In this document: one piece after another, positions 681-43,595 of the stretch
Layout: every line of letters begins with the position of its first letter
Position numbering within the stretch: the first letter of the stretch is position 1
Assembly (NCBI RefSeq): GCF_006345805.1
Contig: NW_021834188.1
Span: 1-47,941 of the forward strand
Length of the DNA stretch: 47,941 nt
Origin: Octopus sinensis
Taxonomy: Eukaryota
Direction: 5' to 3'
The notes under the pieces: generated by a model
Database searches by the model: none
What the model was told of the DNA's origin: nothing
The model's input: only the letters and a program-made list of their open reading frames with translations
Program-made: the position numbers and the translations under genes

Positions 681-1075
681 ATCTGCTTGCATAATACGCA
701 TGTAATAATAGGCAAAAGGAGGGGTTTCACCCCTTACTTTGAGAGATGCTTTATCTAATGGCTCACTATGATAAATCACAAGTCTAAAGAGTTGTCTTTT
801 GGATTAAGAGTTTTATAAACCTTTCCATTAAGGATAATGACAACTTCTTATATTGGTTCCTACAACAAAACATGTAATATGATGATTATAAAAAAGCCCT
901 GGCTTTGCTTTAGTTTTAATTTAGATCCCATTGTTCGCCCTGCAATATGAAGGCCATTGATAATACGAGGACCTGTTGTTACGTAGTATAAGCGTTTTCC
1001 AAGGGCTTGCATCAAACCACCATGCGTTTGATTTGCAGAGATGATTCCGGTCATTCCTAAAGAGTATTGAGCTTG
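681..1075 (-). pseudogene. C-terminal fragment of a Chlamydiae-type DUF3604 protein (bacterial origin, frameshifted)
   Basis: QAQYSLGMTGIISANQTHGGLMQALGKRLYYVTTGPRIINGLHIAGRTMGSKL...FYNHHITCFVVGT...ILNGKVYKTLNP...PPFAYYYMRIMQAD matches the recalled chlamydial pattern QYSPGLTAII...YATTGPRI...PMGSEL...NRHISG.VAGT...IRNG...PF.YYYLRV.QAD. Confidence 0.75.
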
Positions 1076-1186
1076 GATTGCTTTTTTATCTTGTTGATAG
1101 CGAAGATATGAATCAAATTTTTCTCCAGTCAGGTTAAAAGCGGACAAATTAAACGCAAGTTTTAAAGGAATCATGAGAGAAACTGC

Positions 1187-2017
1187 TTAATCAATTTCCT
1201 TTGATTGACGAAGCTTTCCGGATCAGCAGAGCTCTGTTCGGAGAGTAAAGTAGAAGTCAATGTGGTTTAAATTAACGAGTTTGAATTTTTTTGACTGCGT
1301 CTGATTTTAATCGTTTCTCCCGTTTTTAGCTCAAAGCGGTTGAGACCATTGCAGAAACTTCAATGGACTCATTTTCACTCACATACTCGTTTTAAATTTT
1401 GCGGTTTAGTGTAAGAACGAAAGGACGATTTGAAATGGTATGTAAACAAATAGAAGTTAAGACAAAAGCATTAATATCAGGGCTTAAGATAGGACTACCG
1501 GCAACTTAAAGAGTAAGCTGTTGACATATTAAAGGTTGCTAAAATGACACTATCAGCTTCAAGCCTATTCAGATAAAGATAACATAAATTGCCATTTTAA
1601 TAATAATAGGATTGTGTACTAGTTGTAGGAGACAATTCTTTATGGAAAAGAAAGACTTTTTACTTTGAGATGTTCCTTCGATCATTATTCTATTTTTAAA
1701 TGTGAACTGCCGGTGAATTAAATCTTCCAGTCAGAGGATGATATTGATGATTTGAACATCTGCCATAAACCCGAGATGCCCGAAATTAATTCATAAAATA
1801 ACTGCATCGATATCAGCGTACTTATGCGCTACGCGCAAGATAGATCCATCTCCTCTCATTGTGATCAACCATTCAATATCCTACGAGTTTGCCGAGAAAA
1901 GAGGTGCCTCTTAAGATCGCTTGCTTTATCATCTCCAACAGCAACCTGGATGCTTTTTTTAGAAAAGATATTTTTTGATTTCTCTTTAGTTTTTGGAAAA
2001 AGAGCAATTTTTTTCAT
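1187..2017 (-). pseudogene. nadK: Bacterial NAD kinase pseudogene
   Basis: Starts MKKIALFP. Degenerate motifs: ITMRGDGSILR (GGDG motif), *INFGHLGFMADV, ADSVILATFNMSTAYSLS, AFVLTSICLHTISNRPFVL and a C-terminal TLRTELC*SGKLR. Has stops and frameshifts, no introns. Confidence 0.88.
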
Positions 2018-3353
2018 TGGACCCTGGCAGTTTGTTTTGAAGAAGTCTCTAAAACCTGTAGCAATATTGTCGGGGTAAAGTCCAACTTCTTTTAACAAGT
2101 CTGCATGATTAGCATGCTGATTTCCTAACGTGTAAATGAGTCAAGCCTTCTTGGACAATAAAAGAATTGATAATCGATCCCATGCCACTTTGAAGTGAAT
2201 GTTTTTCAATTATAACAACACCTCGAGAATTTTCAAAGTATCTTCATCCAAAGGTTTAACAAAGATTGGTCGATGACTGTTCCATCAAGGTCTTCTAAAA
2301 GCAAAAGCTCGCGTGTTTGCAGACCAATATCCACCACGTGGCCAAAAGCTACTATCGTTAGATTTTTTCCTTTTTAAGGGATTCTTTGCTAAAAAAACTT
2401 TTTCGAATTGAATCTCTTCGTCAACTGTCTGTAAGTTAGGATAGCGGATAGCAGATGGAAGTTTCCATACGAAAGCACTTTGTAGGAGGGCTTTTAGCAT
2501 ATTCCTTCCCGCCTCAAGGCTGCGCGATAAATATATTGGGCATGGCATTCAATATCTTAGAGCCCTTGAGCAGTGATTCCATCATCAAAAGCTAGACCAG
2601 GGCGATTAATGATGCTTTTGAACACAAACATTGTGATAAATGTTATCAAAAGCACGCTGGAGGAAAGTTGATTAGACAAAGGCAATGACTTTTAGTTTTT
2701 CATTATAGCTCATACCTAGAGAGTAGGCAAAAGAGTTTCCCTCGGTAATGACTGCATCTATGCAGCTGTCTAGATATCGCTTCATAAAAACATCTGAGCA
2801 AGAGCCGACGTGCATAGCAGGTGTGATAGCAACAATATTGGGATCTTCTTCAGCAAACTTGAGAACGTGCTTTCCAAAAAACTTTAAAGAATGTTAGCCT
2901 AGGATTTTTATAAAAATGTAATTCTCCTGTTTTTCTATTAAATAGTTTTCCTTTTTGATAAGGCGTTGGATGCATGCCTTTTCTTTTTATGCCTTGTCCT
3001 TTTACTGGAAGAATGTGAACGAGGGTAAAGGGGTCCTGATCTTTCAGTGCTTTGATAGTATCGATAAGCTTTTTGATTTCATGCACATCGATGGAGACCA
3101 AACTGCTTAAATTTAGCAGTGCTAATCACGTTTTTCATTGATTCTTTCATCTGATTGCTTTGCTCGATAAGTGTTTTTACGTAACCTGGAATTCTTAGAA
3201 TGACTTTTATCAGGTCGTCGTGAAAGTGGTTAGCAATAAGGCTATTAAAAAATGGCTGAGAATACTCGTTACAGCGCTTACATTTTTGGTAATTGCCATG
3301 GCATTATCATTGAGAATAAAGGTGAATTTTTTAAGTTTTTTGGGAATGCTATT
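2018..3353 (-). pseudogene. dxs: Bacterial 1-deoxy-D-xylulose-5-phosphate synthase pseudogene, N-terminus missing
   Basis: Collinear motifs: ILNDNAMAITKNV; IDVHEIKKLIDTIKALKD...LVHILPVKGQG; EEDPNIVAITPAMHVGSC; STFLQRAFDNIYHNVC; NRPGLAFDDG; MPNIFIAQP; PSAIRYPNL; IFVKPLD; IEKHSLQSGMGS; LLKEVGL. Multiple stops and frameshifts. Confidence 0.92.
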
Positions 3354-3440
3354 CAGTGTTTGGATTTTTTGTTCGGCGTTGTTTAGCTTTCGACGGCCAT
3401 GAGCAATTAAGTGGTTAGCTTCTTGAAAATGAAGGGAGGC
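3354..3440 (-). pseudogene. xseB: Exonuclease VII small subunit fragment fused in frame to the dxs remnant
   Basis: SLHFQEANHLIAHGRRKLNNAEQKIQTL matches the XseB helix pattern SL..FEEA..LI..C.KKL..AEQKI..L. xseB commonly lies upstream of dxs. Confidence 0.6.
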
Positions 3441-3696
3441 AATGCCAATTGCTTGATTAACTGGATCTACTGAACGTATTTTTCATTTTGTTTTCCTTTT
3501 AGAATCAATAGAAGATGTATTGTAAGAATGGGGAAAAGAGATCACTGCATGTGGATTCAAAAACCCTGAAAAGTTCTCATTTCAACTGAAAGAAAATCAA
3601 GCTCAGAATAGATGTTTTAATAACAAATCTTGACTTCAAATTTTATTAAGTTTTTTCCTTTAGCGTTCATTCTTGAAGAGAACTAAGAACTTGGTA

Positions 3697-3960
3697 CAGT
3701 ATACATTGGTCAATTGCATATTGGTTAATTGTATAAATCGGCTAATGACATAAATTTATTTTCAATACCATATTTTATATGCTTTCCATTCAATATATAT
3801 CGATTAATTGGATAAATTGGTTAATGAAAATGGATGATTTTATTCCTAATTCAGGTTGGCTTCAGCATTGGAAAGAGAGGAACAAAGTATCATTTAAACG
3901 CATTTATGGGGGAAAAAAGATTCCAAAATAAATGGTCATTGGGACAAGAAAGAATCCTAG
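3697..3960 (+). mobile_element. pogo/Tigger-like DNA transposon remnant
   Basis: TA-CAGT terminus with subterminal repeats; GWLQHWKERNKVSFKRIYG resembles the CENP-B/pogo HTH segment. Confidence 0.6.
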
Positions 3961-5258
3961 ATGCTTCAAAGAAACCAAAACACTTCCAGTTAACTAAGTT
4001 GTTAATAAGATATCACGTCAATTTCAGTAGAATTAAAGAATGCGTGATTGACATCACACATTTTTGAAAACTGGTTATCACGTGTTATCAGTCATAATTG
4101 CATGTCTACCTTTTATAGGGTAAATATTTCCTGCTGAAACGAGAATAGTAAAAGTTTCCAGTGATCTTTTTATTGAATTTTTTAATAAAAGGTGTAAAGA
4201 AATGTGGATTTTGCTTAGACGGTTGCTTGCTGTTACAAATTTTTCTGTTATTTTGTAAATCTTCGACCGTTTCTACAACCTCTATCCATTCAAAATACTA
4301 ATTATGGAGAAGAATAACAGGACTTTCTGTTTGATTTGTTCAAGATATCTTAAGCCAAATCCACGCGTGTACATTGAGTCAAAAATATCGGTGATAACTT
4401 CGCGAGGTGAATTTGTATTATTTAGATTCTTGATTATAGATTGATCGATTTTCAAATTGTTTGGTTATAGGCAGAATAAACAGTATTCTAGTGGAGTTTG
4501 CGGTGAACTTGACATAGGCTTGGTCTCAAATGAATAATTAACTCATAACAGCTGCTGATTTGACCTAACAGCTGCTGATCAGAAAAATAAGAGAATAAAA
4601 AGGTTAATGTATCGATTTTACCTGGATAAGAAACATTTCCTTTTGTTAGTCGATAAACTGCTTGAGTTACGAAAGCGTAACTAAAGAAGCCATACCAATT
4701 ACTGTAATAGTTGAAATAGCGGGAACTATGGCTTGAGAAGATGACATGATTAGCAGCGATTTAAATGATTGCCGTTTTTGGCGCAAAGGAGAACTTGAAA
4801 AATAGCCAGTTGCAAAAGGCAGAATATTTTGATCGATCTTTTCTGCGTTCATAGAATTTGCAAAGGCATATAAAGCTAGAACATCTGTAGGGAAGGTAAA
4901 GACAGGTCCGATCGTTGTTAAGTTCTACCACATCCATACACCCAGCTAAAGCATAGATTCACTTCCTAGGACAATCAAGCTAACAATCATTTCTCCTAGA
5001 CTAAATTGAAAAAAAGGTTTACGCCTGACTTAATCCACCAAATTGAAAAATCGTATAGGCTTAATAGATAATTGTGTTAATGCCAGTGACTTTTTGGATA
5101 ATTAAGAAGTCAAAGACTAGCGAAAAGGGATTCAAAAAATATGATTTTGCACAACCGACACTGACTGTTATGGAAAATAGTCCCTTGATGAGTTTTGTAA
5201 TTTAATGTCTGCCCGAAAAATGTTGATATTTAACACTTAACCAATAAAACAGTCATAT

Positions 5259-6723
5259 TTATCGACAAGGAACGTGACTAGTCCCCCCATTTCGATAACC
5301 CTCGCTGTCGTTTAATATCTTCGTTGCACAATTTTTGAGTAAAAAACGAACTTTGCGTGCTTTTGCAACAACATTGGCGGTAATCCGTTTGGGGGGACTC
5401 ACTTCCTCGTCATTCTGGCGAACCCTCTTAACAGGACTGCTGTCGACCAACCCCTCGTCCATTGCCTGGGGCTCACATTGAGGAGTCGAGGACTAAAAAT
5501 ATTGGAAATGTCCACTTTTTTGTCGGAACACAACTGATCGACCTTCAATCCAATTGTCCTCAGTTCTTCCCTCATTATATTCAACATCCCTTGTTGGGGG
5601 GTGGCTTCGATCACGTTGAAGAGATTGTTGAGTGAGCTTGGCAGGGAGATTGTGTCTCCTGAGGGGATCCCTTGAAGGGACTCACCGAGGGACCACAAAA
5701 TTGAATTTTTGACTGATTCGAAATCCCGGGACATGGCCAATTGACTCACAAACCGACGACAGCACAGGAAAAACGTGGTCAGTTGACGTTCGAGGGGACT
5801 CAACTGATTGTTGTCGGTGAATGTCTTCGAAATGATTGTCTTCAAGTCCTCTCCTGACTCCAAGTCGACAAGAACTGATTTAAAACTGTCTGATGGGGCA
5901 TTTTTTAAAGAATCAATTCGGGTTTTCAAAGATTCGAGTTGTTTGGATGTCTTTTCGTAGAAATTCGACATTGAGGAAGATAAACTTGTGATTGTAGGGG
6001 ACAAATCGTGTGCCTGGTGGTCTATCTTGCGACAATAGTAACGGAATAAGTATGTTCTTACAAATGTCTTGTCATCTAATATATTTTTAATTATTTTTAA
6101 ATTATATTTAATATATTTTTAATTAATTATTTTTTAATTTAAATTTTGTTTTTGTGGTCAAAGGGACCGGTACTTAACCTTGTGGTAAAATCGTGTCAGA
6201 AAACCCATGATTTTAGCAAGATCAGGTCGATTAGTGGCCTGATCCTCGGGGTAGATGTGCTTCAGTACATTAATAAGCACTTGTCCATTTCCCGACAAAA
6301 CAGCAGCCTCCGATAACTCGTTAATAGACTTTTCATCACATTCCCACAAAGCCATTGCCATGAGCAATTGATAGATCTATAGGATATTAAAATCAAACAA
6401 ACATTCTCCACGTTGTTGTTGAGTTCTATTAATGCTTTGAAATTGTCAATATCTGATTCTGAGTTATATTTGGCTTAAATAGAGTCTTTCAAACAACCGG
6501 AAATATAATCGACGACCAAAACCAAGGCTTCGTCGTTGCATTCAAATTCGACTGTGGGAGAGTTTGAGCTTAACGTGAGATATTAGGAATACATATATTC
6601 TACTAGACGGGCTAAGATGAGGGAGTCGTTCGTATACTCTGCGGGGTACTTTAATAGCTCAGTCGCCTACGGTAAATTTGAATACTCACAGAAAACCCAC
6701 TGTCGGAACACACCACGATTCAT
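5259..6723 (-). CDS. Multi-exon orphan gene (possible Hook/CH-like N-terminus plus coiled coil); copy A appears frameshifted near 6205
   Basis: ATG at 6723 and several ~23-26 nt GT-AG introns. A 23-nt intron at ~5454-5476 joins ORFs 5399-6004 and 5259-5462, and there is a 103-nt AT-rich intron at 6076-6178. Confidence 0.6.
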
Positions 6724-7370: not shown

Positions 7371-7489
7371 ACTTACGATCACACCTAGTCGTAAATACCC
7401 GTTCCCATCTGAACACGGAAGTTAAGCGATTACAGGCTGTTCTAGTACTTTGCTAGGTGACTACCGGGGAACAAACAGTGTCGTACGGT
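7371..7489 (+). rRNA. 5S rRNA: 5S rRNA gene or pseudogene
   Basis: 119 nt. ACTTACGATCACACC...CCCGTTCCCATCTGAACACGGAAGTTAAGC (A box)...TAGTACT...GGTGAC (C box)...GGGAACA...GTGTCGTA, with 5'/3' ends complementary. Confidence 0.88.
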
Positions 7490-8650: not shown

Positions 8651-9898
8651 TGTCACCGGTTCTGTGTGAAAGCGGGTTAAGAACGATCGCGCTAAATCGA
8701 TTTACGCCGCTTGCCGTAACATCGAAAATTAACAGTAAGCGACCGAGAAGGTTAAATACGAGTCATTAAGTATTCAAACTTAATATTACATCGGCCACGC
8801 AATACCTATGGGCAGCCTGTTACATCAACCTTGAACTAAGATTAACTTCAATTAATTTCATTTTATTAAAACCACAGAGAATAAAATTTAGCTAACTATT
8901 TTTTAATGTAGTCATTAGTACAGTTGATATTTCTCCTTTCGAATTTTTATCTATTAAATTAAAATATCTAAAACTACCTCCACGCGATTATTCGATAAAA
9001 TATTAATTATTTCTTTCTGAGGCAGAATAATATGGAGACTCAAACTTATCCAGTCGCAATGAAGGATTTGTTCCAAAGTCCTTTTAACCCGAACTTATTA
9101 TTAATATTTCTAATTTGTACTTTATCTCCCACGCTAAAAGTATACTTACTATTATGAACATTCATTCTCCTGTTCATAGCTTTGTAATAACTTGAATTTT
9201 CATCAATTGGGTTGATTTCGAAATTAAATCTCTTCGCAGTTGGAAACAAATTGTCTGACTGGGAATAATTTAGATTTAGATTCAAAATCGAATTACATGA
9301 TAAAAATTTTAAATTAATGTTGAAAATCTTTTCAGATCTATTATGTCTATTTGAAAACGTTCATTTGGACAAGAAGCGAACGGATGGTGATTTATATCCC
9401 CAATTTACAATTAAACAAATTTTTTGAAGTTTTAAAAGACGCGAAAATTTGCAAACTTCACAATTTCAATGACTTTCTGATAATCTCATTCTTGACAGTG
9501 AAATATCTTTTTCGAAATTCATATTCAATTTTATTTACTTCTCTGTGTGAAAACTCGTAAATCAGAATTCGCCAGTGGCCGCACCGCAGATAGCAAACAA
9601 GTTTCCTTGCAAGATTGTTATTGATACCCTCTGATACAGCCAGCTGGTTTCCCGGGAGTCATTTTCTTTTTTCCAATGAGCTTCCCGATCAACCAAAGAT
9701 TTTTCAAAAGTTCAAAGCTTCAGAATTTGTGCACAAACATATATTCAACAGTATCGCGAAAAGATAGCTAAGTATAAGTAAGAGGTATTATATGTTTTCA
9801 AAGTTTCAGGTTATTTACTTTAATCACTACATTCGTGATTCACTCAGACCCAGTCTACTTCATCCATTTTCGACCACCAAAGAAACAGAGAAGTGACA
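8651..9898 (-). mobile_element. Degenerate Ginger-like (integrase-type) DNA transposon
   Basis: TGTCAC...GTGACA imperfect TIRs; remnants of the integrase zinc finger (CEVC) and a C-terminal FSVGDKVQI motif. Confidence 0.6.
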
Positions 9899-16710: not shown

Positions 16711-17305
16711 GCAAAATATTTTGTCACCGGCCGTAGGCTGGACGGCGCCGTTCGTTGGACACTTTCAAAATCTCATTTATTTCAATTTTGCTCATATAAA
16801 ACATACCTTAATTTTTTCCAAGTCCCATTTTAAGCCTATTTTCGATGAATTTGGTGACTTTTGAGAAAATAAGAGAGCTAACAAAACCAACCACACCGTT
16901 TTTTCTACGATTATTGATTAAAAATCATAATGTTTATTATATTTCGAGGTTTACCATTTTAAAATAATACTTTTTAATAGTTATAAAATCGAATTTATTT
17001 GTAAAATTTATTAAATAAAATAGACGTTGGTATCCTAACAGCAATTTTAGAGATGACAAGTACAGATTTCTAAAGGGAACCCTAACCAAACCTTAATTGC
17101 TGCACACGTATTACTTCTTATCCAGCCTTAGGCGTTCAGGTAGTAAGTCCAACCTAAACCAATTGGCCTACGGCCGGATTTATATATAGAATAGAATAGT
17201 GTTTATTGAGCGAAAAGAAAAAGAAAAACAAGGAAGAAAAACATCGGCGGGGAGATAAAAACAAGGCACCGAAGTGTCTCTTTCCATGCGTATCCCCAAT
17301 ACTAG

Positions 17306-19901
17306 TCATGTTTGACGACAATTCTCCAAGACCATCCGGATCGTGGGCACAGAGGATTCTTGTGAGTCTTTTAGCCTTCCGTCAAGTTGTACTCCGTAAG
17401 CCAATTTCATAGCGAAACGTCTTGTCTTTTCCAACTGTTCGATCAGGTAGTCACTCTCCTCCGTACCGTACCAGCCCTCGTAGCCATATGTGAGGACTGG
17501 CTGCACACACGTTTTGTATACGTAGATGTACGTTTCCGGATCCAGATGGAACCTGGTTAAGCTTTTGAGGATCCTCACACTCCTCTTTCTCTGATTTGCT
17601 ATATGCTCTACGTACGAGCCACGACAGTTAATGGTTGCTCCCAGGTAAGAAAGATTTTTTCTTTTCGAGAGATCCATCACATAGCTACTCATCGCATATG
17701 CACAAGACTCCGCATAGCGACTCCCTCTCCGCAACCATGAAATGGTGCTCTTCTCCGGTGCTAGGGTCAAACCCTTCTCTATAGTCCACATCTTTAGCGT
17801 TGCAATGTATGATTTCAGTCGTCTCCAAGACTGCGATATCCTTTTCGAGGTATCCATGACCAGGATATCGTCAGCATAGATAACGAGCTTGCCAGTACGT
17901 GTCGACGGCAGAGGAATGTCCGCCAAGAAGAGGTTGAACAGAAGTGGACTCAAGATAGATCCCTGCGGGACTCCCCTTCTAAGTTCCACACACCCCGATA
18001 GGCGGTTTCCACAGCGGACAAATGATTGTCTTCCTGACAAGAAGCTCTCCAGCCATCGATAGGTCTTTATCCCGGCTCCGATGTCATGGATTCTGGAGAG
18101 TAGGCCCAGGTGCCACACGCTATCGAAGGCTTTGGCCAGATCCAGACACACCACAGTTAGCCATGCTTCATTTCTGTCAGCACGGGATAATTGGTGCTCT
18201 AACTCCCTGAGGCAGTCCCCTGTGGATCTTCCTCCACGAAATCCCCATTGTTCAGGTAAAAGCAAATTTTGTGATTCTATATGACCAGAGAGTCTGTTAA
18301 AGACAATCTTTTCCATTGTCTTAGAGAAAGCACAAATGAGGCTAATTGGCCGGTAGTTCTGTGCCAGCAGTGTCGATTTACCAGATTTTGGAATCATTCG
18401 AACAATCGTATGCTTCCACGCCGATGGAAGGTGTCCGAACGTCCAGCTGGCGTGAAACAACATAGTCAATGCTCGTATCAAGATTTCAGGGGCCTTCTTT
18501 AACAACTTCGGAGGGATGTAGTCGAAGCCAGGCGCCTTGTTCTTCAACCCAGCAATTGCCCTTTCAACCTCTTCCTGTGTTATCGCCCCACATAATGGTC
18601 CCTCCGATAATTGCGAAGAGCCAAGCTTCTTCACAATTCGGTCATAAGTCCCTCGTGGAACGGTAGATTCGACCTCTTGAACCTGACTAAGTTGGTTCCT
18701 GAGTACTTCCGGGATACGATCAGAGGAGATATATTTCCCGTCTGGTTCTTTTAGTGAAATTTCAAATCCTTTGGCATCATTTCTGGTAAGGCGTTGATAT
18801 GCTTTCCAGAAATTAGGGTTTCGCTTATCCAGTTTTCTGCATTCAGACCTCCATTTACTTTCGACCTCAGTCTTGGCCATTTTTGCAATAGTAGATTTTA
18901 TCTTGTCGATCTCCAATTTCAGGCGGCATTTGATTGACTCAACCCGACATCTTCTCCTGCGATTTTCCAGGGTACCTTTCGTTCTGATCAGAGTGACAAG
19001 TTTCGAATTCATCCGCTTTTGCGTTCCTTTGGGTTTCCATACATTTTTTAATGCATAAACATCCAGGAATTTTATGATTGACGATCTAAGGTGATCATCG
19101 AGATTGTCAATATCATCTCTGCTTCTCAGAGGCTGGGACACGACATTTCGAAGAGAATCCCGCATATATGATTCGAATAAACTCCAGTTCATGTTCACGA
19201 GGTTGTAACCAATGAACAAGTCCTCCGTAACATTCATAGTCATCTTTATCAACATCGTTTGCGGCACGTGGTCAGAGCCAATGTCCGCTTCCAACCTCGG
19301 TATGTAACATAAAGGACTAATTGATGCCGAGCATAGAAAGAGACCCAAGCGATCAGCCCTGCCTCTGTCTGCATAATGATTCAGTTCTTCCGATGTAAAG
19401 ACCGAAAAACCCAAGCTACTGGCCAAGTCCTCAAGGACAGTTCCATATATTCGTAGTTTCACATCCATAACTCACATTTTTGGCATTAAGATCTCCTGCT
19501 AGGATTGACAGGCAATTTTCCTCAAAGAACGTCCCAATAACGTTTGAATAGCGCCTTAGCGACTTTGAGTACATTCCCCCGACGGTTAGCCAGCCAGCAG
19601 TCGTGTGCAGCTCGAGCACAATAAGTTCACAGAGTGACTCCTCCACAATTCTGATGTTTCTTACCTTAAGGTTCGCCCTGTAGTAGACTGAGGTTCCTGT
19701 CCCCGCCACTGAGTTTATTTTCCATGGTATATTAATAGACTTATAGCCTTCGAATTCCACCCTCGTAGCTTCCTTCAGCTTAGTCTCATTGATAATCAAT
19801 ATGTGAGACTTCGCTGTGGCCAGCAGGAGCCTCAGCTCCGATGCCCGTCTCGCAAGCGAGCGGGCATTTAGAATTGTCAGAGCAAGGAATCCTTCCGACA
19901 T
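17306..19901 (-). CDS. LINE ORF2: AP endonuclease plus reverse transcriptase (one frameshift near 19450)
   Basis: NARSL, INETKL, GDLNAK, GSDH (EN); KAPGFD, YRPISL, QWGFR, DLAKAFD, GVPQGSILSPLLF, YADD, YLG (RT). Confidence 0.93.
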
Positions 19902-20690
19902 GGGTGGCTGACCTCCCGTGGGAGCGCCACCTTTTTCGGTAAAGGGGGTCTGCCTGCTTTCCGTTTGCCACCGGTTTCAGCCGGCTCTGGAGGCGTCCCA
20001 TCGTCCTCCAGCCGGGCTTCAGGGCTTGGCAGCTGAACTCCAGATTTTGCTACTGCAGTTTTCTTCACTGCTCTCGCCTTCGGGGCGGCGGGTTTTGTTT
20101 CTGGGCATGGGTCCGTTTGAATTCCCGTGTTAATGAAGCAGGTCTGACTTCCTGATTCGATCAAGTTCATGACGATAACGTCAGTTTGAACACCAATATC
20201 GCATTTCGGATTAAGTAACTTCTTCGACCAAGACATTTGTATGCCAGACATTTGTATTGCATTTACACGATTTCTCTTAGTGGGAGTCACTTCCAGTTTC
20301 TTCTTTGTCGATTGTTTCGCCACCGGACAGCCCAACCAGTTCGCCCGGTGTCCATGTGATCCGCAGTTGATGCACGGGAGTTTGACGTGTGTTCCGATCG
20401 TACATTGGGTGCGATCGTGTGCATCACCACACAACAAACAGCGCACTGTCTCTTTACAGTATAACGAGATGTGTCCAATTTGTAACATCGATAGCATTGC
20501 CTCTCGGGATTTTTGTACCAGGTAAAACGGATTTGGTTGAAGCCAATTTTAAGACCTAGGGTGATCAACGACTGTGCTTCGTTTCTGTCCTGGATAGTAA
20601 GCTTGCCAAGTGGCAGATTTTTCCCATTTTTACTAAATCTTTCCAGTTTGAACCCTGGGGATAGCACTTTCGACAAAAGCCTGTGTAGAT
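19877..20690 (-). CDS. LINE ORF1 gag-like protein with CCHC knuckles (truncated, frameshifted)
   Basis: CYRC..IGHISLYC, CLLCGDAHDRTQC, CINCGSHGHRANWLGCP. Confidence 0.88.
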
Positions 20691-20836
20691 CCGGATTTTT
20701 TTGGAATCCAACTATTCCCCTATGCGGCCTTCGGCCGCGGTGTGTAGTTTTTAAAGTCCAACCTAAACCAATTGGCCTACGCCGGATTTTTTTTGGAATC
20801 CAACTATTCCCCTATGCGGCCTTCGGCCGCGGTGTG
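20691..20836 (+). repeat. ~91-bp tandem repeat inside the Ginger element, with GC hairpins
   Basis: ccggattttttttggaatccaactattcccctatgcggccttcggccgcggtgtgt occurs twice; aagtccaacctaaaccaattggcctac also occurs at 17145-17171. Confidence 0.85.
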
Positions 20837-20899
20837 TTTGCTTCTTATTTTAGTTGAAAAACTTTTTATACAATTTTTAAAATTTTATTAACCAAAAAT

Positions 20900-21964
20900 T
20901 TAAACTAATCGTTTGAGTCTACTAATGTGAATGGATTCAATTTCTGTTCCATTTTCATCTTTTAACACACATAAATTATTTTTTTTGTCGACGATATAAA
21001 ATTTCTCTGAAGATATTTCATCGTGAAGAGGATATTTCCTATTATTCACATTTGCGTCTCTATCATGTCGGATAATAACAGAATCTCCGACATTTATATC
21101 CTCTTCGTCGAATTTCCTTGTAGCCGATATCCATCTTTTTATAGATTGATTGAATCTATATAATTAAATTTTTCTTAAGCGACCTTTCTACTTGGCCCTG
21201 AACCCAAGGTGCTCTTGGCCTGCCGAAAACTTGTTTAGTTCCAAACTCCTTGCATACATTCTCTAACAAGGAGTTTCTAAATTCCTTTCCATTGTCACTA
21301 TGCAAAAGAATTGGATGTCCAATAGTGCAAAAAATTGATTTTATTAATTTTGAAATTTCAATAGCATTTTTTGTCTTTGCAGGTTCAACGACTCCAAATT
21401 TTGAAAATGAGTCTATTAATACTAACAACTACAATATTAAATCACGAATACCCATCATTAATATCAGCATATCTTCTTAAGTCAATTAGATCTATGAGAT
21501 AACGATCTCGTGGTTCATAAGCTATAATAGGAGTAATAGTTGGTTTAGTGGCCATCAAACGCATCGCCTATATTGCTCATAAATATTAAACCTGGCAAAC
21601 TTCACACCGGCTTACAACAGTAAGGACCTCTCTTCTCGTAATCGGATAAATTTCTTCACAGAGTTTGGAATAAAGCCTATCACGACCAAAATGGTTTAAA
21701 TTGTGTTCAGCCTACAAAATTTGATTTTATATTTACCTAAATTGTTTTCATCTTAAATTCATTTTGTTCGATAGTGAAGAATCTTAGTTTTTTACCATTT
21801 TTCAGAATGAAAAGCACAGATTGCTCATAAATAAAATTTTTTGAGAGAGAACGTATTTTAAAACGTTCTTTCCTCTGTGTTTCATCTTCTATCAAGACAG
21901 TTTCAATATAATTAATTAATTTTTCAACAAAGGATTGCAATAGATACAACAAAACCATTCTCAC
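20900..21964 (-). pseudogene. Ginger integrase/transposase with spliceosomal introns, degenerate
   Basis: HNLNHFG...CEVC zinc finger; rve core DLIDL...IDSFSKF...LHSDNGKEF...QGQVER; introns at 21712-21736 and 21568-21591; in-frame stops. Confidence 0.85.
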
Positions 21965-22711
21965 GCGATTCTTAATTTAAACAAAAATTAGGAATATTTA
22001 ATAAATTATTTAAATAATTTTGATTTTTTAATGGAGATTATTATTGTAAAAATATTTTTAATTGAAAATATTGCTTAGTGTCCACTCAACGGCGCCGTCC
22101 ATCCTACGGCCGGTGACATTTTTTGCGTATAATATTTTGCTTTCATTTCTTGAAAAAAATGTGGAAGTGTATAAAAATAGGGTTTTTAATTATGAGATTG
22201 TTCCTATTACAATATCTACGAGTCGGTAGGTATGTTATAATTTGTGGTAAATGATAAATAAAATAAAATGATAACAAAAGATGAATTGAAGTCCTGCTTC
22301 CCAATACTTTTATATATACATGAATAATAAATGATTCTTTATCGTGTTGACACAGGATAGGGTAGTCTCCAAATTCTATTAAATACAAACACATATATTT
22401 TATCTAGAGCGAGATCAAATAGCGACAATCAATTACAGGAAAAGAAATCACAATTAGAAAGATAAAATTAATCTTATTTGTCTGGCATTATACAAATCTT
22501 ATGTGTATTAAATGCTTTCTGTTTGTTTACCAATAGTCTGTAAGGAAATTCCTTATAACTAACCTGCTAAGATAGTTTTTAGGAGACAAACCTGGAACTT
22601 TGGTTTATGTCTCTACACACTTGAGAGTGTGGAATTGCACTACTCCCATTAAGACCAAAATTACAATATAATCCAAAATTTTTAATTCAAAAATAATAGT
22701 TTGCACATTTT

Positions 22712-23032
22712 TTAACCCAGGGTGCGCAATATGGATCTATTAATTTTTTTCAATTTAAATTTTTTTTATTTAATAAAGACGATCATTGAAATGCTTGTCA
22801 ACATATTTCTGTAATTTTTTCTAATTGGGTAAAATCCGTTTTATTCCATCAGTTCTAATTGTTCCTTTTTTATAATATACAAAAATTTCATAATTACGTA
22901 GTTCGCGTCTTATACCTTTAATTTTTTTGTGAAACTTGACAAAAATCATGACGTCATATGACGCACTAAATAGAGAAAAATTAGAATAGAGAAAATTAGA
23001 ATTAGTGAAAAATTAGAATTAGTGAGGGTTAA
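22712..23032. mobile_element. Possible piggyBac-like remnant
   Basis: TTAA-CCC ... GGG-TTAA ends and an internal gacgtcatatgacgca motif; TIR similarity beyond CCC is weak. Confidence 0.3.
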
Positions 23033-23366
23033 ATATTTGGTGATAATCCTTTGGGAACTTCGTCGGCAGTCTACATAATAATCAGCAGTAAAGAACTAAA
23101 TGAGTGAATTGGTTAATGCCCATTTTATAGCTCGACTTTCCAGATTCATATAATTTGTTGTTTTCATTGATAATGTCCATGTTACGCTTAAAAATGCAGA
23201 TTCTGAATGGCTCTCGTTGTTTGATCTCTAATACATTGAAAGTATATACAATACTGAAGTTGGCAACATAGTTGTTCCATTCTGAGAGGATGTCTTCATT
23301 GATTTCACATTGGAGATCAGTCACTGAAATTATTTTGTAAAAGATGAATGCAAAAATAAACCACAT
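23033..23366 (-). pseudogene. Cathepsin L-like prepro region (signal peptide plus I29 inhibitor domain); mature domain not found
   Basis: MWFIFAFIF signal; EW...E..R..IF..N...I...N (ERFNIN-like) and MGINQFTHL; short introns. Confidence 0.75.
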
Positions 23367-23604
23367 CAACAAGTTCGATTTAATAAATAAATAATTATTT
23401 TAATAAATCTACAACAAACTAATTAATTGTTAATTTTAAATTATAAATTATTCTCATTCTATTTTTTTGACTTTTTCGTCACCTATTTTTTGCCTTGATA
23501 TATTTGGACGCATTTCAAAATGAAATCTTATGTAGTCATTGTGAAGTCATTGCTGATTATTCAAGCCTTTTTTGGCAAACAATTTTAGATTAGTAAACAA
23601 TATA

Positions 23605-24265
23605 CCATTTCTCATACTAAATGGGATTAACACCAAACTAAGTGGGATTAGCAGAAAACTAAATGGGATTAACGTCAAACTAAGTGGGATTAACATCAAT
23701 CTAAGTGGGATTAATAGCAAACTAAATGGGATTAACACCAAAAAATTCTTTGTTTAAAATTTTATGTTAACGATACTTGAGATGTCGAGCGATACTTGAT
23801 TTTGATATTGATAATTTCGGAAAAATTAATTCAAATTTTCGTTTAATTCCATGAAGGGTAATTGTGCTATCGTCTTCAATGCATGATATACAAAAGTCGA
23901 TATGTTCTTTGTCAAACTTTTTTCTATAATTTCCACCTCTCGTGTCAGGTTTAACTCCATCCCTTATCCAACGATATGCTGTTGTTCTCGAGATATTGAG
24001 TTCAATTGCCGTTTTTTTCCAATCCCCACCTGATTCTGCAACTGAAATTAAATGTATTTTATTTCTATGTATTTGATTTTTCTCTTCTAATGATTTACGT
24101 GGCATTTTTATTTGCTGCGTCAAAATATAATATTTATAATAAAAGTAATCCTTTATTGATCCCATTTAGTTCGTTATTAATCCCACTTAGTTTGATGTTA
24201 ATCCCATTTAGTTTTCTCCCAATCCCACTTAGTTTGGTGTTAATCCCACTTAGTGTGGGAAATGG
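23605..24265 (-). mobile_element. Tc1/IS630-like non-autonomous element with modular TIRs and TA TSD
   Basis: TA-ccatttc...gaaatgg-TA; TIRs made of 21-bp actaa(a/g)tgggattaa repeats; ORF 23767-24165 encodes only the HTH region (ISRTTAYRWI...DDSTITL...SISKSSIARHL), no DDE domain. Confidence 0.88.
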
Positions 24266-24697
24266 TATAGATGATATTTTGAAATGTGAGAGATGTATTA
24301 TGTCGCGCCCCACGCTGGCGACCAGAGCGACCTTCATTGTTGACAGGGTTGACAGGGTGACCTACTTAGTTTGACACTAATTACTGACTAAAGATAATTC
24401 CTAAAAATTTGAAAAACTTAACATTTTTTAACTCTATTGATAGTAACTATCTTGTTTCATCTATCAAAAGATATTGAAAACGGTATTTAGTATAATCATT
24501 ATCAGTATACAACAAGACTTTAGCTGTGCGGTGGGGCGGCCTTGGCATGAGATCTTATTCCGATTTCTTCTGGATTAAAGCAGTTCACCGAATTATTCTC
24601 TGACTCGATCGATGGTGTGTCAACTCTCCATTTGAAAGGTTATTTGATTTTATTAATAGTTTTTATTACAAGGTTTAACGTTTATAAAGTTTATTTG

Positions 24698-25092
24698 ATC
24701 TGCTTGCATAATACGCATGTAACAATAAGAAAAAGGAGGGGTTTCACCCCTTACTTTGAGAGATGCTTTATCTAATGGCTCACTATGATAAATCACAAGT
24801 CTAAAGAGTTGTCTTTTGGATTAAGAGTTTTATAAACCTTTCCATTAAGGATAATGACAACTTCTTATATTGGTTCCTACAACAAAACATGTAATATGAT
24901 GATTATAAAAAAGCCCTGGCTTTGTTTTAGTTTTAATTTAGATCCCATTGTTCGCCCTGCAATATGAAGGCCATTGATAATACGAGGACCTGTTGTTACG
25001 TAGTATAAGCGTTTTCCAAGGGCTTGCATCAAACCACCATGCGTTTGATTTGCAGAGATGATTCCGGTCATTCCTAAAGAGTATTGAGCTTG
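24698..25092 (-). pseudogene. Chlamydiae-type DUF3604 C-terminal fragment, copy B
   Basis: Duplicate of 681-1075. Confidence 0.75.
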
Positions 25093-25203
25093 GATTGCTT
25101 TTTTATCTTGTTGATAGCGAAGATATGAATCAAATTTTTCTCCAGTCAGGTTAAAAGCGGACAAATTAAACGCAAGTTTTAAAGGAATCATGAGAGAAAC
25201 TGC

Positions 25204-26034
25204 TTAATCAATTTCCTTTGATTGACGAAGCTTTCCGGATCAGCAGAGCTCTGTTCGGAGAGTAAAGTAGAAGTCAATGTGGTTTAAATTAACGAGTTTG
25301 AATTTTTTTGACTGCGTCTGATTTTAATCGTTTCTCCCGTTTTTAGCTCAAAGCGGTTGAGACCATTGCAGAAACTTCAATGGACTCATTTTCACTCACA
25401 TACTCGTTTTAAATTTTGCGGTTTAGTGTAAGAACGAAAGGACGATTTGAAATGGTATGTAAACAAATAGAAGTTAAGACAAAAGCATTAATATCAGGGC
25501 TTAAGATAGGACTACCGGCAACTTAAAGAGTAAGCTGTTGACATATTAAAGGTTGCTAAAATGACACTATCAGCTTCAAGCCTATTCAGATAAAGATAAC
25601 ATAAATTGCCATTTTAATAATAATAGGATTGTGTACTAGTTGTAGGAGACAATTCTTTATGGAAAAGAAAGACTTTTTACTTTGAGATGTTCCTTCGATC
25701 ATTATTCTATTTTTAAATGTGAACTGCCGGTGAATTAAATCTTCCAGTCAGAGGATGATATTGATGATTTGAACATCTGCCATAAACCCGAGATGCCCGA
25801 AATTAATTCATAAAATAACTGCATCGATATCAGCGTACTTATGCGCTACGCGCAAGATAGATCCATCTCCTCTCATTGTGATCAACCATTCAATATCCTA
25901 CGAGTTTGCCGAGAAAAGAGGTGCCTCTTAAGATCGCTTGCTTTATCATCTCCAACAGCAACCTGGATGCTTTTTTTAGAAAAGATATTTTTTGATTTCT
26001 CTTTAGTTTTTGGAAAAAGAGCAATTTTTTTCAT
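25204..26034 (-). pseudogene. nadK: Bacterial NAD kinase pseudogene, copy B
   Basis: Duplicate of 1187-2017 with the same lesions. Confidence 0.88.
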
Positions 26035-27369: not shown

Positions 27370-27456
27370 TAGTGTTTGAATTTTTTGTTCGGCGTTGTTT
27401 AGCTTTCGACGGCCATGAGCAATTAAGTGGTTAGCTTCTTGAAAATGAAGGGAGGC
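27370..27456 (-). pseudogene. xseB: xseB fragment, copy B
   Basis: Duplicate of 3354-3440. Confidence 0.6.
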
Positions 27457-27690
27457 AATGCCAATTGCTTGATTAACTGGATCTACTGAACGTATTTTTC
27501 ATTTTGTTTTCCTTTTAGAATCAATAGAAGATGTATTGTAAGAATGGGGAAAAGAGATCACTGCATGTGGATCTAAAAACTCTGAAAAGTTCTCATTTCA
27601 ATTGAAAGTAAATTAAGCAAATCTTGACTTCAAATTTTATTAAGCTTTTTCCTTTAGCGTTCATTCTTGAAGAGAACTAAAAACTTGGTA

Positions 27691-27930
27691 CAGTATACAC
27701 TGGTCAATTGCATATTGGTTAATTGCATATATAGGCTAATGACATAAATTTATGTTGAAACCATATTTTATATGCTTTCCATTCAACATATATCGATCAA
27801 TTTGATAAATCGGTTAATGAAACTGGATGAAGCATTGGAAAGAGAGAAACAACGTATCATTTAAACGCATTTATGGGGGAAAAAAGATTCCAAAATAAAT
27901 GGTCATTGGGACAAGAAAGAATTCTAGATG
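27691..27930 (+). mobile_element. pogo/Tigger-like remnant, copy B
   Basis: Diverged duplicate of 3697-3960 with a small deletion. Confidence 0.55.
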
Positions 27931-30695: not shown

Positions 30696-30861
30696 TATGT
30701 TTATTTTATTAAATGTTATCTAATTTTATAATTATGTTAAAAGTCATATTTTCTAGAATATATTTTAATCTCTTTCTTAACTTTTTCTTTTTCCATAAAA
30801 TTTTACAATATTGAATTTTTGGCAGTCCATATGTTCCGGACCAGTGATTAAAACGAAAAAA

Positions 30862-30980
30862 ACTTACGATCACACTTAGTCGTAAATACCCGTTCCCATC
30901 TGAACACAGAAGTTAAGCGATTACAGGCTGTTCTAGTACTTTGCTAGGTGACTGCTGGGGAACAAACAGTGTCGTACTGT
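30862..30980 (+). rRNA. 5S rRNA: 5S rRNA gene or pseudogene, copy B variant
   Basis: Duplicate of 7371-7489 with about 5 substitutions. Confidence 0.82.
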
Positions 30981-36630: not shown

Positions 36631-37796
<1,166 letters not shown>

Positions 37797-41155: not shown

Positions 41156-43595
41156 ATGGTTAAGAAAAATTTTTTAACGGTTAAAGCTCGTGCGAAAGCA
41201 CAAAAACAATCAGCTGTCAAACCACAACTTTTCTATGAACCCACGGAACTTGTAGATCCTATGGAATCTCTGAGAACTATGAAGCCTCAAAAATCCGGTA
41301 AGACGCAAAAATCTTCCGAATCCAATCAGCTGGTAACTTAACGTGACAGCTTAAGCCTCTGCTATATGGTCAGCATCAAAAACCCAACACTGAGGAAAAT
41401 CAAAAGATTCAATCTTCATTCAAAATCCCCCAATGCGTCGAAAGCTCGGATTACTCTACAAAAGTCCGGATCTTTCCGACTCCAATTCCGGTGCGCCGAG
41501 GATGCAGCCGCATTCAAGGCAGAGTTATCTGAAACCAAAATGTTTGGCGAAGGCGGCCATAAACTCGCCTCTGTAGCTGAGAAGGCCTCAGTCCTAATCC
41601 TCAAGGGAATTCTCCATTGGATCTCAACACAGGACCTTAACTTCCATTTGCGAGAAACTCTTGAATAGGACTTCAAGTTCGAAAGATACTCCTGCAATGG
41701 AACTGACATTCCGATTGGGAGCTCACACTGAACTCCAGGGCTGAGGCCAACGCCCTCATCCGCTTTGGAATCACAGCTGGCTTCAGCCATATCCGCTGTG
41801 AATGGCACAAGCCTCCGGCCGTGAAATGCTTCAGATGCAGCCAATTTGGGCACACGTCTCATAAGTGCACTGAGAAAGTTCGTTGCTAGCTCTGTGCCGG
41901 CCAAGGTTAATGTCTGCATTCAGACGTCGCCGGACCCCGGTCCCCACAACAACACGAAGTCAAACACTGTTGAGCACCATAACGCAAAAGTTGACAGCTT
42001 GGCTGTCCTCCGTAAGAAGGCAGAAGCTCTCCATGACAAAGCCCTGCCACAACAAGGTGCTCACTCGAATGCCTTAATGGAATTTTTTCGCCGTTGTCTA
42101 GGAGCCCTGACTAAACTCGGAGTGGATATGGAAATGCTGCAAAAGCTCCTGCTAGGAGGGAGCAATTCAGCAACATAGTCCCCTTGAAAATCGTCGCTGT
42201 GAATGCTCGATCTATTAAGAGACGGCATCACGACTTCGTTGAGATGGTAAACAGCGGCCATCCGGACATTATTGTCGTCAACGAGTCTAAGCTCAGGGAA
42301 AACCAGTCGCATGAACTCCCCGGATATCGATCACTGGACCTAAAATGGGGCACCTGGTTCACGCCAGGGACTGGTTCGAGTATCTTTTATTGCGAAAAAT
42401 TCCAAGTCCGTGACCTCACTATCATCGAGGGCAGGTTATGTGAATTCCTCTCTCTTGAGGTGAAAACCGAATCCTTCTAGCTAAAGGTCGGTGGAATTCT
42501 CAAGTACAGCTCACTGCCTTCTTATCGGAGACCTAAACTCGAAGCACACGGCGTTTGGATCTCGGTTAACCAACCAGGATGGTCGAACACTGAAAAAGAT
42601 CACTGACAAACTTGGTGTTTTTGTCAGGACATCTGAAGACCCGAAGCACCTCTCACCCTTCGGCGGGGACAATCTATGCCTGTGCATCTATTCTCACTCT
42701 GTTGCTAACTTATAGAAAAGCCTACAGTGCTTGACGATATCGGAAGTGACCACTTTCCAATGGAGATCAAAATTCACACTAGTACTGTTAAATAAGAACG
42801 CATATCAACACACTACAGTCTCTCAAGGATCAACTGGCCACACTACAGGAGCTCCATGAGTGCATTCCTGCACGACAACGCTCGCCCTGCTGGCTATAAC
42901 TCAGCCCTCGACATCGACTCCGCAAGCAATGAGTTTAGCAATTTTATGCTTCACTATCTAACATCGTACGGAGCACTGCCATGTGCTGACCGCGAACGAA
43001 GGACCACTTCAAGTGCGAAAGATTATGGAAAAGAGTAACGGGACTTTTCTGTTTGATTTGTTAAAGATATCTTAAGCTAAATCCAGCTAGCTGCATACGC
43101 TACCTGGGGCTTACAATTGACGCTAACTTGGGTTACTGTCTGCATGTCAAGAAAAAGAGAGCGAAAGCTATCGCAGCTCTCCGCCTCTTAAGAAGCATGC
43201 ATCTGGATCCAAGGACTTTCCTCTTTGTGTTCTACGCAACCATCCTACCCAGCTTGCTGTACGGATGGAAGCATAGTACTACTCAAAAGATCTCGAGAAA
43301 ATTAACAGGAAATGCGAAAAAATCCGACGCTACGTGTTAAAGCTAGTTTACAGGCTTGACCCGCGAAGCCCCGTCCCAAGCTGGGCGGAGCCCAAATCCG
43401 ACAGATCATTGAGAAATCTATCCGGTCTTTCCGGAGAAGATCTCAAGTGACCAACCTCTTTATCGATCGGGACCAGTAACCGACAGCAATAGACGTCTCT
43501 TAGAAGAGTTCGACTGGCTCAAGCAGTCGTCTCGTTGTATCGACGCCAAAAAAAATAATTGTCTGTATCAGTCTCTTTCCTTTCTACAATAAAAA
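41156..43595 (+). mobile_element. Degenerate APE-type LINE related to 17182-20690, RT core deleted
   Basis: ORF1 CFRCSQFGHTSHKC; EN NARSI, VNESKL, GDLNSKH, GSDHFP; then a jump to YLG...HLDPRTF...PSLLYG. Confidence 0.85.

What the first reader, a model, noticed from the sequence alone, without database searches (positions are those of the whole stretch)
681..3440. Fossil Chlamydiae-like operon (xseB-dxs-nadK plus DUF3604) embedded in an animal genome
Seen: frameshift-aware translation gives collinear, intron-less DXS and NAD kinase motifs, abutting and co-oriented. They are flanked by eukaryotic transposon remnants and contiguous with intron-rich host genes and 5S rRNA. Established: animals lack the MEP pathway, so dxs is foreign, and xseB-dxs-nadK is a bacterial gene order. 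Inference: PSAIRYPN, TPAM..GSC, STFLQRAFDN, HLGFMADV and the DUF3604 tail resemble Chlamydiae proteins as I recall them (environmental Simkania/Parachlamydia-like). The many stops and frameshifts are shared by both duplicate copies, which argues against contamination by a live bacterium or read error. This points to an old integration from a chlamydial symbiont or co-infecting pathogen, a donor rarely reported for animal HGT.
Basis: partly seen in the sequence, partly recalled or inferred. Interest (0 to 1): 0.93.

Follow-up and report, generated by a model that had tools for sequence, protein, structure and literature searches.

The report
Chlamydial DNA fossils in dicyemid genome
This is dead DNA from a Simkania-like chlamydial bacterium, scattered in pieces through the genome of what appears to be a dicyemid (a tiny worm-like parasite of cephalopod kidneys) that was assembled along with its host, and it records a past infection nobody seems to have described.

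Summary
The broken xseB-dxs-nadK and DUF3604 pieces are real, chlamydial and integrated, but three points change.

(1) Host. The window is probably not from the main 2.7-Gb animal but from a co-assembled dicyemid: its LDH has seven 20-26-nt introns, and a second, short 18S in the assembly fits dicyemid primers.

(2) Anatomy. It is not one operon. The insert spans 681-5107 and joins pieces of at least three donor loci, with a host repeat inside. xseB is only 25 codons.

(3) Scale. A Simkania-like metagenome contig (L233) is 85-89% identical to the insert (dN/dS 0.75). It also finds similarly decayed pieces on five other small contigs. Broken rpoC and ATP/ADP-translocase genes turn up too. Overlapping pieces share almost no changes, which points to many separate insertions in one epoch from a donor about 2% from L233. 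No intact dxs, nadK or rpoC was found.

Best reading: fossils of a past Simkania infection, like nuclear Wolbachia transfers but from Chlamydiota. The pieces are functionless. I found no report of this.

The parts
681..1075 (-). DUF3604 gene, 3' fragment (aa 475-608 of P0002), 3 frameshifts
   Evidence: 107 of 130 identical to P0002; P0002 is PF12228
1073..1123 (-). DUF3604 gene, internal fragment (aa 278-294), joined to the 3' fragment across a deletion of about 180 codons
   Evidence: 11 of 17 identical to P0002; 80% DNA match to G062 about 0.55 kb upstream of the other piece
1208..2017 (-). nadK pseudogene, full length, 5 stops and 5 frameshifts
2017..3365 (-). dxs pseudogene, aa 171-646 only, 1 stop and 12 frameshifts
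3354..3428 (-). xseB fragment (aa 39-63), fused to dxs by a deletion of about 0.55 kb
3419..3696 (-). Fragment of a 656-aa orphan ORF of the near-donor contig L233 (aa 476-570)
   Evidence: 247 of 276 aligned bases identical to L233 14759-15185
3695..4090 (.). Internally deleted host repeat sitting inside the bacterial insert
   Evidence: 80-92% matches on many small contigs; none of the 57 listed matches on C1-C30
4150..4556 (-). Intergenic DNA and 5' part of a 1274-aa orphan ORF of L233
4557..4962 (-). 3' part of a Simkaniaceae orphan membrane-protein gene (P0123 aa 426-574)
   Evidence: homologues in 12 of 39 genomes of G001's family
4963..5107 (-). Two pieces of a sugar-porter (MFS, PF00083) gene; right end of the insert
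   Evidence: 85-87% DNA identity to L233
24698..29074 (-). Second copy of the whole insert, inside a tandem duplication of about 24 kb period
   Evidence: 98.4% over 6.8 kb; 19 mismatches in 2987 aligned bases
43023..43085 (-). 63-nt secondary copy of insert DNA, inside an apparent decayed retroelement
   Evidence: 89% to L233; shares 3 of its 6 differences from L233 with the main insert
36631..37796 (-). Host L-lactate dehydrogenase, 333 aa, seven introns of 20-26 nt, TAG stop; identifies the host genome
7371..7489 (+). Host 5S rRNA (second copy 30862-30980)
   Evidence: an 87-89% similar copy lies next to another fossil on C2502
23601..24269 (.). Tc1/IS630-like element with inverted repeat arrays, left flank of copy 2 (its right arm is 139-254 in copy 1)
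   Evidence: HTH_Tnp_IS630 E 0.006, below cut-off

Best explanation
A Simkania-like chlamydia once lived in close contact with, most likely inside, the cells of a dicyemid. Fragments of its chromosome were repeatedly joined into the dicyemid's nuclear DNA over one evolutionary epoch and were inherited. They were dead on arrival and have decayed neutrally by about 10% substitutions, with an AT bias and many deletions. The window holds one large mosaic (681-5107) made from at least three donor loci. It was later interrupted by a host repeat, partly recopied (63 nt) and duplicated with its flanks. It has no function. SHOWN: donor lineage, integration among host repeats and genes, neutral decay, many loci, tiny-intron host. 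INFERRED: that the host is a dicyemid (from introns, primers and 18S; no database match), that infection was intracellular, that capture was by end-joining at breaks, that it passed on through the agametes inside the axial cell, and the genome-wide amount (roughly 0.2-0.3 Mb, extrapolated).
For: DONOR. G001 and G062, the only 2 genomes of that genus held, score 728 and 722 bits against at most 347 for the other 37 of 39 family genomes. The Dxs+NadK tree puts the inserts sister to that genus at 96.1/99, and aligning to each of 30 references separately gives the same ranking. L233 is 85-89% identical and collinear. DECAY. dN/dS against L233 is 0.75 over 382 codons; between living G001 and G062 it is 0.03. 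39 of 146 conserved Dxs and 22 of 90 conserved NadK sites are changed, against 3 of 228 and 1 of 96 in G001. GC-to-AT changes outnumber AT-to-GC 163 to 60 in the other fragments. REAL. Contigs of run X1 cover all 30 bins of 22500-38000. Three of them contain 24 of the 26 lesions shared by both copies with no gap at those sites, and one 1702-nt contig bridges host repeat, insert, right junction and 600 nt of flank. MANY LOCI. L233 hits C7755, C2502, C8851, C8318 and C6125 at 84-91%. Broken rpoC pieces lie on 4 small contigs, a broken translocase gene on C9489, and diverged dxs-nadK copies on C8694, C9496 and C3154. Overlapping pieces share only 2 differences from L233 in 125 sites and 0 in 35. 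HOST. LDH introns are 20-26 nt; Dicyema introns average 26.2 nt (PMC2222250). The short 18S matches dicyemid primers F3 and R2 (PMC6778094 supplement) at 0-2 mismatches, the long 18S at 7-9. Short-type 18S pieces lie on C8694, C9496 and C7755.
Against: No live chlamydia was seen, so infection of the dicyemid itself is not shown. The window itself holds no 18S, and no dicyemid reference sequence was available. One short-type 18S piece (L036, C7755) has 6 mismatches to R2. X1 may be the sample the assembly came from, so it is not independent. The listed contig at the left junction passes it by only about 30 nt, under the tool's 31-nt rule. The rpoC and translocase pieces could not be fetched, so their donor is untested. 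In the Dxs-only tree the insert clade has SH-aLRT 89 and its place next to Simkania and P0126 is unresolved. No AU test was run. Microhomology at 10 deletions is not enriched (5 against 7.4 expected), so the repair pathway is unsupported.
Confidence: 0.78

Rival explanations
1. Same fossils, but the bacterium infected the cephalopod kidney or another resident, and the dicyemid took up its cells or DNA by endocytosis rather than being infected.
For: Dicyemid epidermal cells take up host urine by endocytosis (PMC6736024). No live chlamydial 16S, dxs, nadK or rpoC was found in the assembly (16 and 101 used a strict first look).
Against: Heritable insertion at many loci from one narrow donor lineage at one age (84-91%) is easier to explain with bacteria inside the axial cell or germ cells. 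Other bacterial donors were not surveyed, so donor specificity is untested.
Confidence: 0.3
2. One very large insertion (much of a chromosome) that was later shattered, dispersed and duplicated, rather than many separate insertions.
For: All pieces have one age. All blocks in the window lie on one strand. The window copy and the C8694/C9496 copies share a TGA at nadK codon 84 and form a clade at 96.8/100.
Against: Overlapping pieces share 2 differences in 125 sites and 0 in 35. Of 76 conserved columns in the overlap only 2 changes are shared, against 12 and 8 private ones. One shared stop is near what the mutation spectrum gives by chance (my rough estimate: about 0.4). The window's block order (MFS, dxs, DUF3604) is the reverse of G001 and G062, which plain deletion cannot produce unless the donor's order differed.
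Confidence: 0.2
3. The host of the insert is another compact-genome eukaryote (for example a renal ciliate) or the main animal itself.
For: Paramecium also has 20-35-nt introns (PMC2222250), and Chromidina ciliates live in cephalopod renal appendages (listing). Protein searches with LDH and RPC5 did not name a taxon.
Against: LDH reads 333 aa in the standard code, ends in TAG, and uses CAA/CAG for all 10 Gln; that this is unlike oligohymenophorean ciliates is recalled. The dicyemid primers fit. No chlamydial-type hit lies on C1-C30; the chromosome hits are short (33-64 aa) and look like host NADK and RNA polymerase exons.
Confidence: 0.08
4. Assembly chimera or error-ridden reads from a live chlamydial contaminant.
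For: The assembly mixes two eukaryotes, and five near-identical copies suggest uncollapsed haplotypes. The tandem copy in this window may itself be an assembly product.
Against: The lesions are present in X1 contigs. A host repeat interrupts the insert. The changes hit conserved residues and follow an AT-biased spectrum. All 30 Dxs matches listed are partial and none is an intact dxs.
Confidence: 0.02

Closest known systems
Nuclear Wolbachia transfers as palaeosymbiosis fossils, Dictyocaulus viviparus (PMC4046930; abstract and Discussion read)
   Same: Short, disabled, partly duplicated bacterial fragments interspersed with host DNA; no live symbiont seen; used to infer a past infection.
   Different: The donor here is Chlamydiota (Simkania-like), not Wolbachia. 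The host is probably a dicyemid. A donor-like lineage only about 2% away is present in a metagenome. No second isolate or expression data here.
Xenoturbella bocki and its Simkaniaceae symbiont (PMC11521371; passages)
   Same: A marine invertebrate associated with Simkaniaceae, found through a host genome project.
   Different: There the bacterium is live and intact, and the 1 chlamydial candidate among 56 HGT candidates was judged to come from a bacterial contig. Here the DNA is integrated and decayed, and it groups with Simkania rather than with that symbiont (G005).
Chlamydial tRNA genes and rickettsial inserts in fern mitogenomes (PMC10027690; passages)
   Same: Chlamydial or other intracellular-bacterial DNA inherited in a eukaryote.
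   Different: Plant mitochondria, and the chlamydial part is tRNA genes. Here it is protein-gene debris in an animal nucleus.
NUMT/NUPT mosaics (recalled)
   Same: Pieces from distant donor loci joined at one site, then eroded.
   Different: The donor is not an organelle. End-joining signatures were not detected.

Membership tests
Nuclear fossil of an intracellular bacterium (nuwt-like) | Sequence nests within one bacterial lineage | tested here: met
Nuclear fossil of an intracellular bacterium (nuwt-like) | Physically joined to host DNA | tested here: met
   Right junction and internal repeat bridged by one X1 contig; host repeat inside. The left junction is seen only in assembly contigs, and X1 is not independent.
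Nuclear fossil of an intracellular bacterium (nuwt-like) | Genes disabled and evolving neutrally | tested here: met
Nuclear fossil of an intracellular bacterium (nuwt-like) | Not explained by a live co-sequenced bacterium | tested here: met
   No intact dxs, nadK, DUF3604, rpoC or translocase among listed matches; these searches give lower bounds
Nuclear fossil of an intracellular bacterium (nuwt-like) | Present in independent isolates | tested here: inconclusive
   One holder run, one sample; five near-identical copies on four contigs
Nuclear Wolbachia transfer (strict sense) | Donor is Wolbachia | tested here: not met
   Donor is Simkania-like
Functional horizontally acquired gene (MEP pathway or NAD kinase) | Intact frame under purifying selection | tested here: not met
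Functional horizontally acquired gene (MEP pathway or NAD kinase) | Expressed | not testable with these tools
   No RNA run was available for this stretch
Single chlamydial operon xseB-dxs-nadK-DUF3604 | DUF3604 directly follows nadK in chlamydial genomes | tested here: not met
   1 of 80 DUF3604 loci has dxs/nadK in its flank, convergent (many loci have short flanks); 14 kb upstream in G001
Genus Simkania (donor) | Falls with the genus in a protein tree | tested here: met
   Sister at 96.1/99; in a 99-support group with Simkania and P0126
Genus Simkania (donor) | 16S or ANI thresholds | not testable with these tools
   No donor 16S or genome in hand
Dicyemida (host) | Very short, uniform spliceosomal introns | tested here: met
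   7 of 7 LDH introns are 20-26 nt; published mean 26.2 nt
Dicyemida (host) | Dicyemid-type 18S on linked contigs | tested here: met
   Primer fit; short-type 18S on C8694, C9496 and C7755, not on the window itself
Dicyemida (host) | Phylogenetic placement with reference dicyemid sequences | not testable with these tools
   No dicyemid reference sequence could be fetched

The most novel reading that the evidence does not exclude
A dicyemid carries hundreds of nuclear fossils, about a tenth of a genome in total, from a germline-reaching Simkania infection whose donor lineage is still extant. This would make Chlamydiota a Wolbachia-like source of heritable DNA in an animal and reveal a chlamydial hyperparasite in cephalopod kidneys.
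Probability: 0.55. Interest if true: 0.82.

Novelty: new variant of a known kind. Interest (0 to 1): 0.72.

Why it matters
Large-scale symbiont-to-animal DNA transfer is mostly known from Wolbachia. A chlamydial case would show that Chlamydiota can reach an animal germ line and leave the same kind of record. It would add Dicyemida to the hosts of Simkaniaceae. My searches found no such link: 'dicyemid' with 'chlamydia' gave 5 general papers, 'cephalopod' with 'Simkaniaceae' gave 0, and searches listed nothing of the kind. I read those as listings only, and the library lacks most subscription journals. Because a sequence about 2% from the donor exists (L233), the fragments give a direct neutral mutation and deletion spectrum for a fast-evolving, compact genome. 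Practically, the assembly contains a second eukaryote, so HGT and gene-content claims made on its small contigs may be assigned to the wrong animal.

Tried and rejected
Runs: no RNA holder was listed. Runs X2 and X3 of the same sample hold next to none of the stretch; the tool says this is no proof of absence, so I do not count it. Depth figures were not used as copy number.

Searches that found nothing useful: the first genome scan with the broken DUF3604 frame; window 4667-4924 in 5 Simkaniaceae genomes (later identified through); the G001 MFS gene as DNA against G000, which missed even the window's own piece and so was too insensitive. LDH and RPC5 searches did not identify the host. ORF 5399-6118 has no Pfam or Atlas hit. 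No Dxs closer than G001 was found among 18 of the 120 listed homologues that I compared. P0124 is a repetitive chance hit. Two look-ups of earlier scan findings returned nothing. The amplicon paper's supplement held only universal primers (part 1 of 2 of file 1 read).

Ideas dropped: microhomology-mediated deletion (P 0.81, measured on L233 rather than the true donor). A recoded-stop genome (stops are of all three kinds and fall at unrelated residues). My early idea that 4301-4363 was LINE-derived: it is chlamydial, and 43023-43085 is its copy. A single circularised 20-kb fragment: a third, distant locus is also present.

Left open: the rpoC and translocase pieces and the wider C8851 mosaic could not be read, so their donor is untested.
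Full report
OBSERVATION. The window is the whole of contig C10659 in a 2.72-Gb assembly of 13,516 contigs. Pfam confirms xseB, dxs and nadK domains on the minus strand. Against the Simkania genome G001 (record title Simkania sp.), dxs aa 171-646 aligns at 69% with 12 frameshifts and 1 stop, nadK aa 1-280 at 66% with 5 and 5, and DUF3604 aa 472-605 at 65% with 3 frameshifts. xseB is only aa 39-63, fused to dxs. DNA identity is 67% over 2.15 kb, E 9e-210.

DONOR. Of 120 phylum genomes scored, 48 matched. Of 39 family genomes, 36 matched, with G001 and G062 at 728 and 722 bits and the next at 347. These two are the only genomes held for that genus. A Dxs+NadK tree (33 rows, 690 columns where the insert has a residue, the short C3154 copy left out, one gammaproteobacterial outgroup) makes the inserts a clade (96.8/100), sister to that genus (96.1/99). 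Aligning the DNA to each of 30 references separately gives the same order, so the result is not reference bias. A Dxs-only tree with 26 of 120 listed database homologues keeps them in a 99-support group with Simkania and P0126, unresolved inside. No AU test was run.

A NEAR-DONOR. An open frame at 4670-4924 hit orphan protein P0123, which has homologues in 12 of 39 family genomes. Its metagenome contig L233 has intact ORFs and shares gene order with G001. Window 5107-4150 and 3696-3419 are collinear with L233 at 85-89% ungapped identity, with deletions of 1 to 1,689 nt. dS is 0.215 and dN 0.16 over 382 codons (ratio 0.75), whereas the L233 and G001 sugar-porter genes are nearly saturated at silent sites (pS 0.73).

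ANATOMY. The insert is 681-5107; 3,890 of 4,427 bases are assigned to the donor. In coding order: sugar porter pieces, P0123 3' end, start of a 1274-aa ORF, a host repeat remnant (3695-4090), a piece of a 656-aa ORF, xseB/dxs, nadK, and two DUF3604 pieces. These come from at least three donor loci. In G001 DUF3604 is 14 kb upstream of xseB and the sugar porter about 440 kb away. Only 1 of 80 DUF3604 loci had dxs/nadK nearby. So it is a mosaic, not an operon. A 63-nt copy at 43023-43085 shares derived changes with the insert.

DECAY. About a quarter of strongly conserved residues are changed (39 of 146 Dxs, 22 of 90 NadK), against 1% in G001. GC over dxs-nadK is 36.7% against 44.5% in G001. No intact dxs, nadK or DUF3604 was among the listed matches in G000.

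REAL, NOT ERROR. One run (X1) holds 0.84 of the words; it may be the assembly's own sample. Its contigs cover all 30 bins of 22500-38000. Listed contigs 24668-25458, 25429-26100 and 26204-27240 contain 24 of the 26 lesions shared by both copies without a gap there (lesion places); their single gap is at the frameshift private to copy 2. Contig 27985-29686 bridges the host repeat, the insert, the right junction and 600 nt of flank. The left junction is passed by only about 30 nt. Five near-identical copies on four contigs differ by 3-37 bases in about 3,000 and share long flanks. Most are probably haplotypes; published Dicyema heterozygosity is 1.24% (PMC6736024, passages). The tandem copy is unverified.

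WHOSE GENOME. The assembly holds two 18S types: about 2.6 kb, mostly on chromosome-scale contigs, and 1.67 kb on small contigs, 73-80% alike in the alignable parts. The dicyemid primers F3 and R2 (PMC6778094 supplement rows) fit the short type at 0-2 mismatches (F3: 2 of 2 loci; R2: 5 of 6, the sixth a degraded copy with 6) and the long type at 7-9. The window's LDH has seven introns of 20-26 nt, against 26.2 +/- 1.9 nt in Dicyema (PMC2222250, passages). It uses the standard code with a TAG stop, which argues against a ciliate (code recalled). Short-type 18S pieces lie on three contigs that carry fossils. The repeat inside the insert occurs only on small contigs in the 57 listed matches. Dicyemids live in cephalopod renal sacs, so the main genome is presumably a cephalopod; that a long 18S is typical of coleoids is recalled. 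I put the dicyemid reading at about 0.9.

NOT ONE EVENT. L233 as a query gave 33 matches, including pieces on C7755, C2502, C8851, C8318 and C6125, and a 63-nt piece on C2687. These are 84-91% identical to L233. Their neighbours include the window's 5S type and repeats, a TGS1 gene with an apparent 28-nt intron, and an aroA-like remnant (E 0.0009, below cut-off). Two probes not chosen from the window were also positive. G001 RpoC found 61-76% pieces, mostly with stops, on 4 small contigs among 16 matches; the rest look like eukaryotic polymerase exons. PF03219 found one broken, near full-length translocase on C9489. Neither was read, so their donor is assumed. Diverged dxs-nadK copies on C8694, C9496 and C3154 differ from the window at dS 0.37-0.40, ratio 0.62-0.71. 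Where pieces overlap they share 2 differences from L233 in 125 sites and 0 in 35. The donor was therefore about 2% from L233, and each piece decayed on its own by about 10%. Cover outside the window's locus is about 1.8 of 19.6 kb for L233 and 193 of 1,353 aa for RpoC. Extrapolated to 2.4 Mb this is 0.2-0.3 Mb in hundreds of loci. That is a rough figure from two probes, one of them chosen through the window.

HOW IT WORKS. Most likely a Simkania-like chlamydia infected this roughly 30-cell animal, whose agametes develop inside the axial cell. Bacterial DNA was joined into breaks, inherited, and left to erode. Chlamydiae can pass vertically in asexual animals (Hydra buds, PMC13229535, passages). 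Infection, repair route and germ-line path are inferred; microhomology was not enriched. The main rival is uptake by endocytosis from an infected kidney. A single shattered insertion is less likely but not excluded, given one shared nadK stop.

COMPARISON AND NOVELTY. It works like the Wolbachia fossils of Dictyocaulus (PMC4046930, abstract and Discussion) but is not a Wolbachia transfer. In Xenoturbella the Simkaniaceae symbiont is live, and its one chlamydial HGT candidate was judged bacterial (PMC11521371, passages). Chlamydial tRNAs occur in fern mitochondria (PMC10027690, passages). PMC7710466 and PMC12953835 (passages; part of one supplement) added nothing decisive. Searches listed no report of chlamydial DNA in a dicyemid or of nuclear chlamydial fossils in an animal; I saw listings only. 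Supplements of the Dicyema genome paper were not read and could bear on this.

VERDICT. Real, functionless, a new variant of a known kind; interest 0.72.

Noticed in passing
G000 small contigs (for example C1618, C8223, C8702, C8694, C8695, C8697): The assembly seems to contain a substantial second eukaryote genome, probably a dicyemid, in contigs up to 0.85 Mb with apparent uncollapsed haplotypes. It has its own 18S and NADK-like and RNA-polymerase-like exons on small contigs.
   Followed up: partly
L022 3368-3500; L019 87-730; L032; L036; L023; L024: A histone H3-like gene (recognised by eye) starts about 200 nt after the intact short 18S, with no 5.8S called there. Many degraded 18S pieces are scattered on small contigs.
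   Followed up: no
window 7371-7489 and 30862-30980; L241 232-367: Divergent, dispersed 5S rRNA copies. In both places one sits within about 2.3 kb of a chlamydial fossil.
   Followed up: no
window 16722-22118: A 5.4-kb element with 42-nt terminal inverted repeats and a nested LINE (RT 17306-19471) interrupts a thiolase-like gene. It is absent from C9489 and C9055, so it is polymorphic.
   Followed up: partly
window 5399-6118 (-): 239-aa open frame at 42% GC with no Pfam or Atlas match. It is missing from the related locus on C9567 and C11947.
   Followed up: partly
window about 23100-23280 (-); 9705-9890 (+); 44290-45900 (+): Cathepsin propeptide (I29), a weak ARS2 match and an RPC5 gene: host genes or remnants.
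   Followed up: no
G000:C9489:41662-42993 (-): Near full-length but broken ATP/ADP translocase (PF03219), 36 kb from a copy of the insert. Donor untested.
   Followed up: partly
L242 1-600 and 850-1501 (C8851): The flanks of the L233 match look like further bacterial debris: an aroB-like end (recognised by eye) and an aroA-like start. This may be another multi-locus mosaic.
   Followed up: partly
L233 13475-15445: The 656-aa ORF begins with what looks like an IS256-type transposase start (recalled motif; no Pfam hit) fused to an orphan region.
   Followed up: no
L056, L076, L104, L107: Records titled Aerophobetes or Verrucomicrobia carry DUF3604 proteins 58-60% identical to the chlamydial one, and L076's Dxs+NadK falls among Chlamydiae; probably mislabelled.
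   Followed up: no
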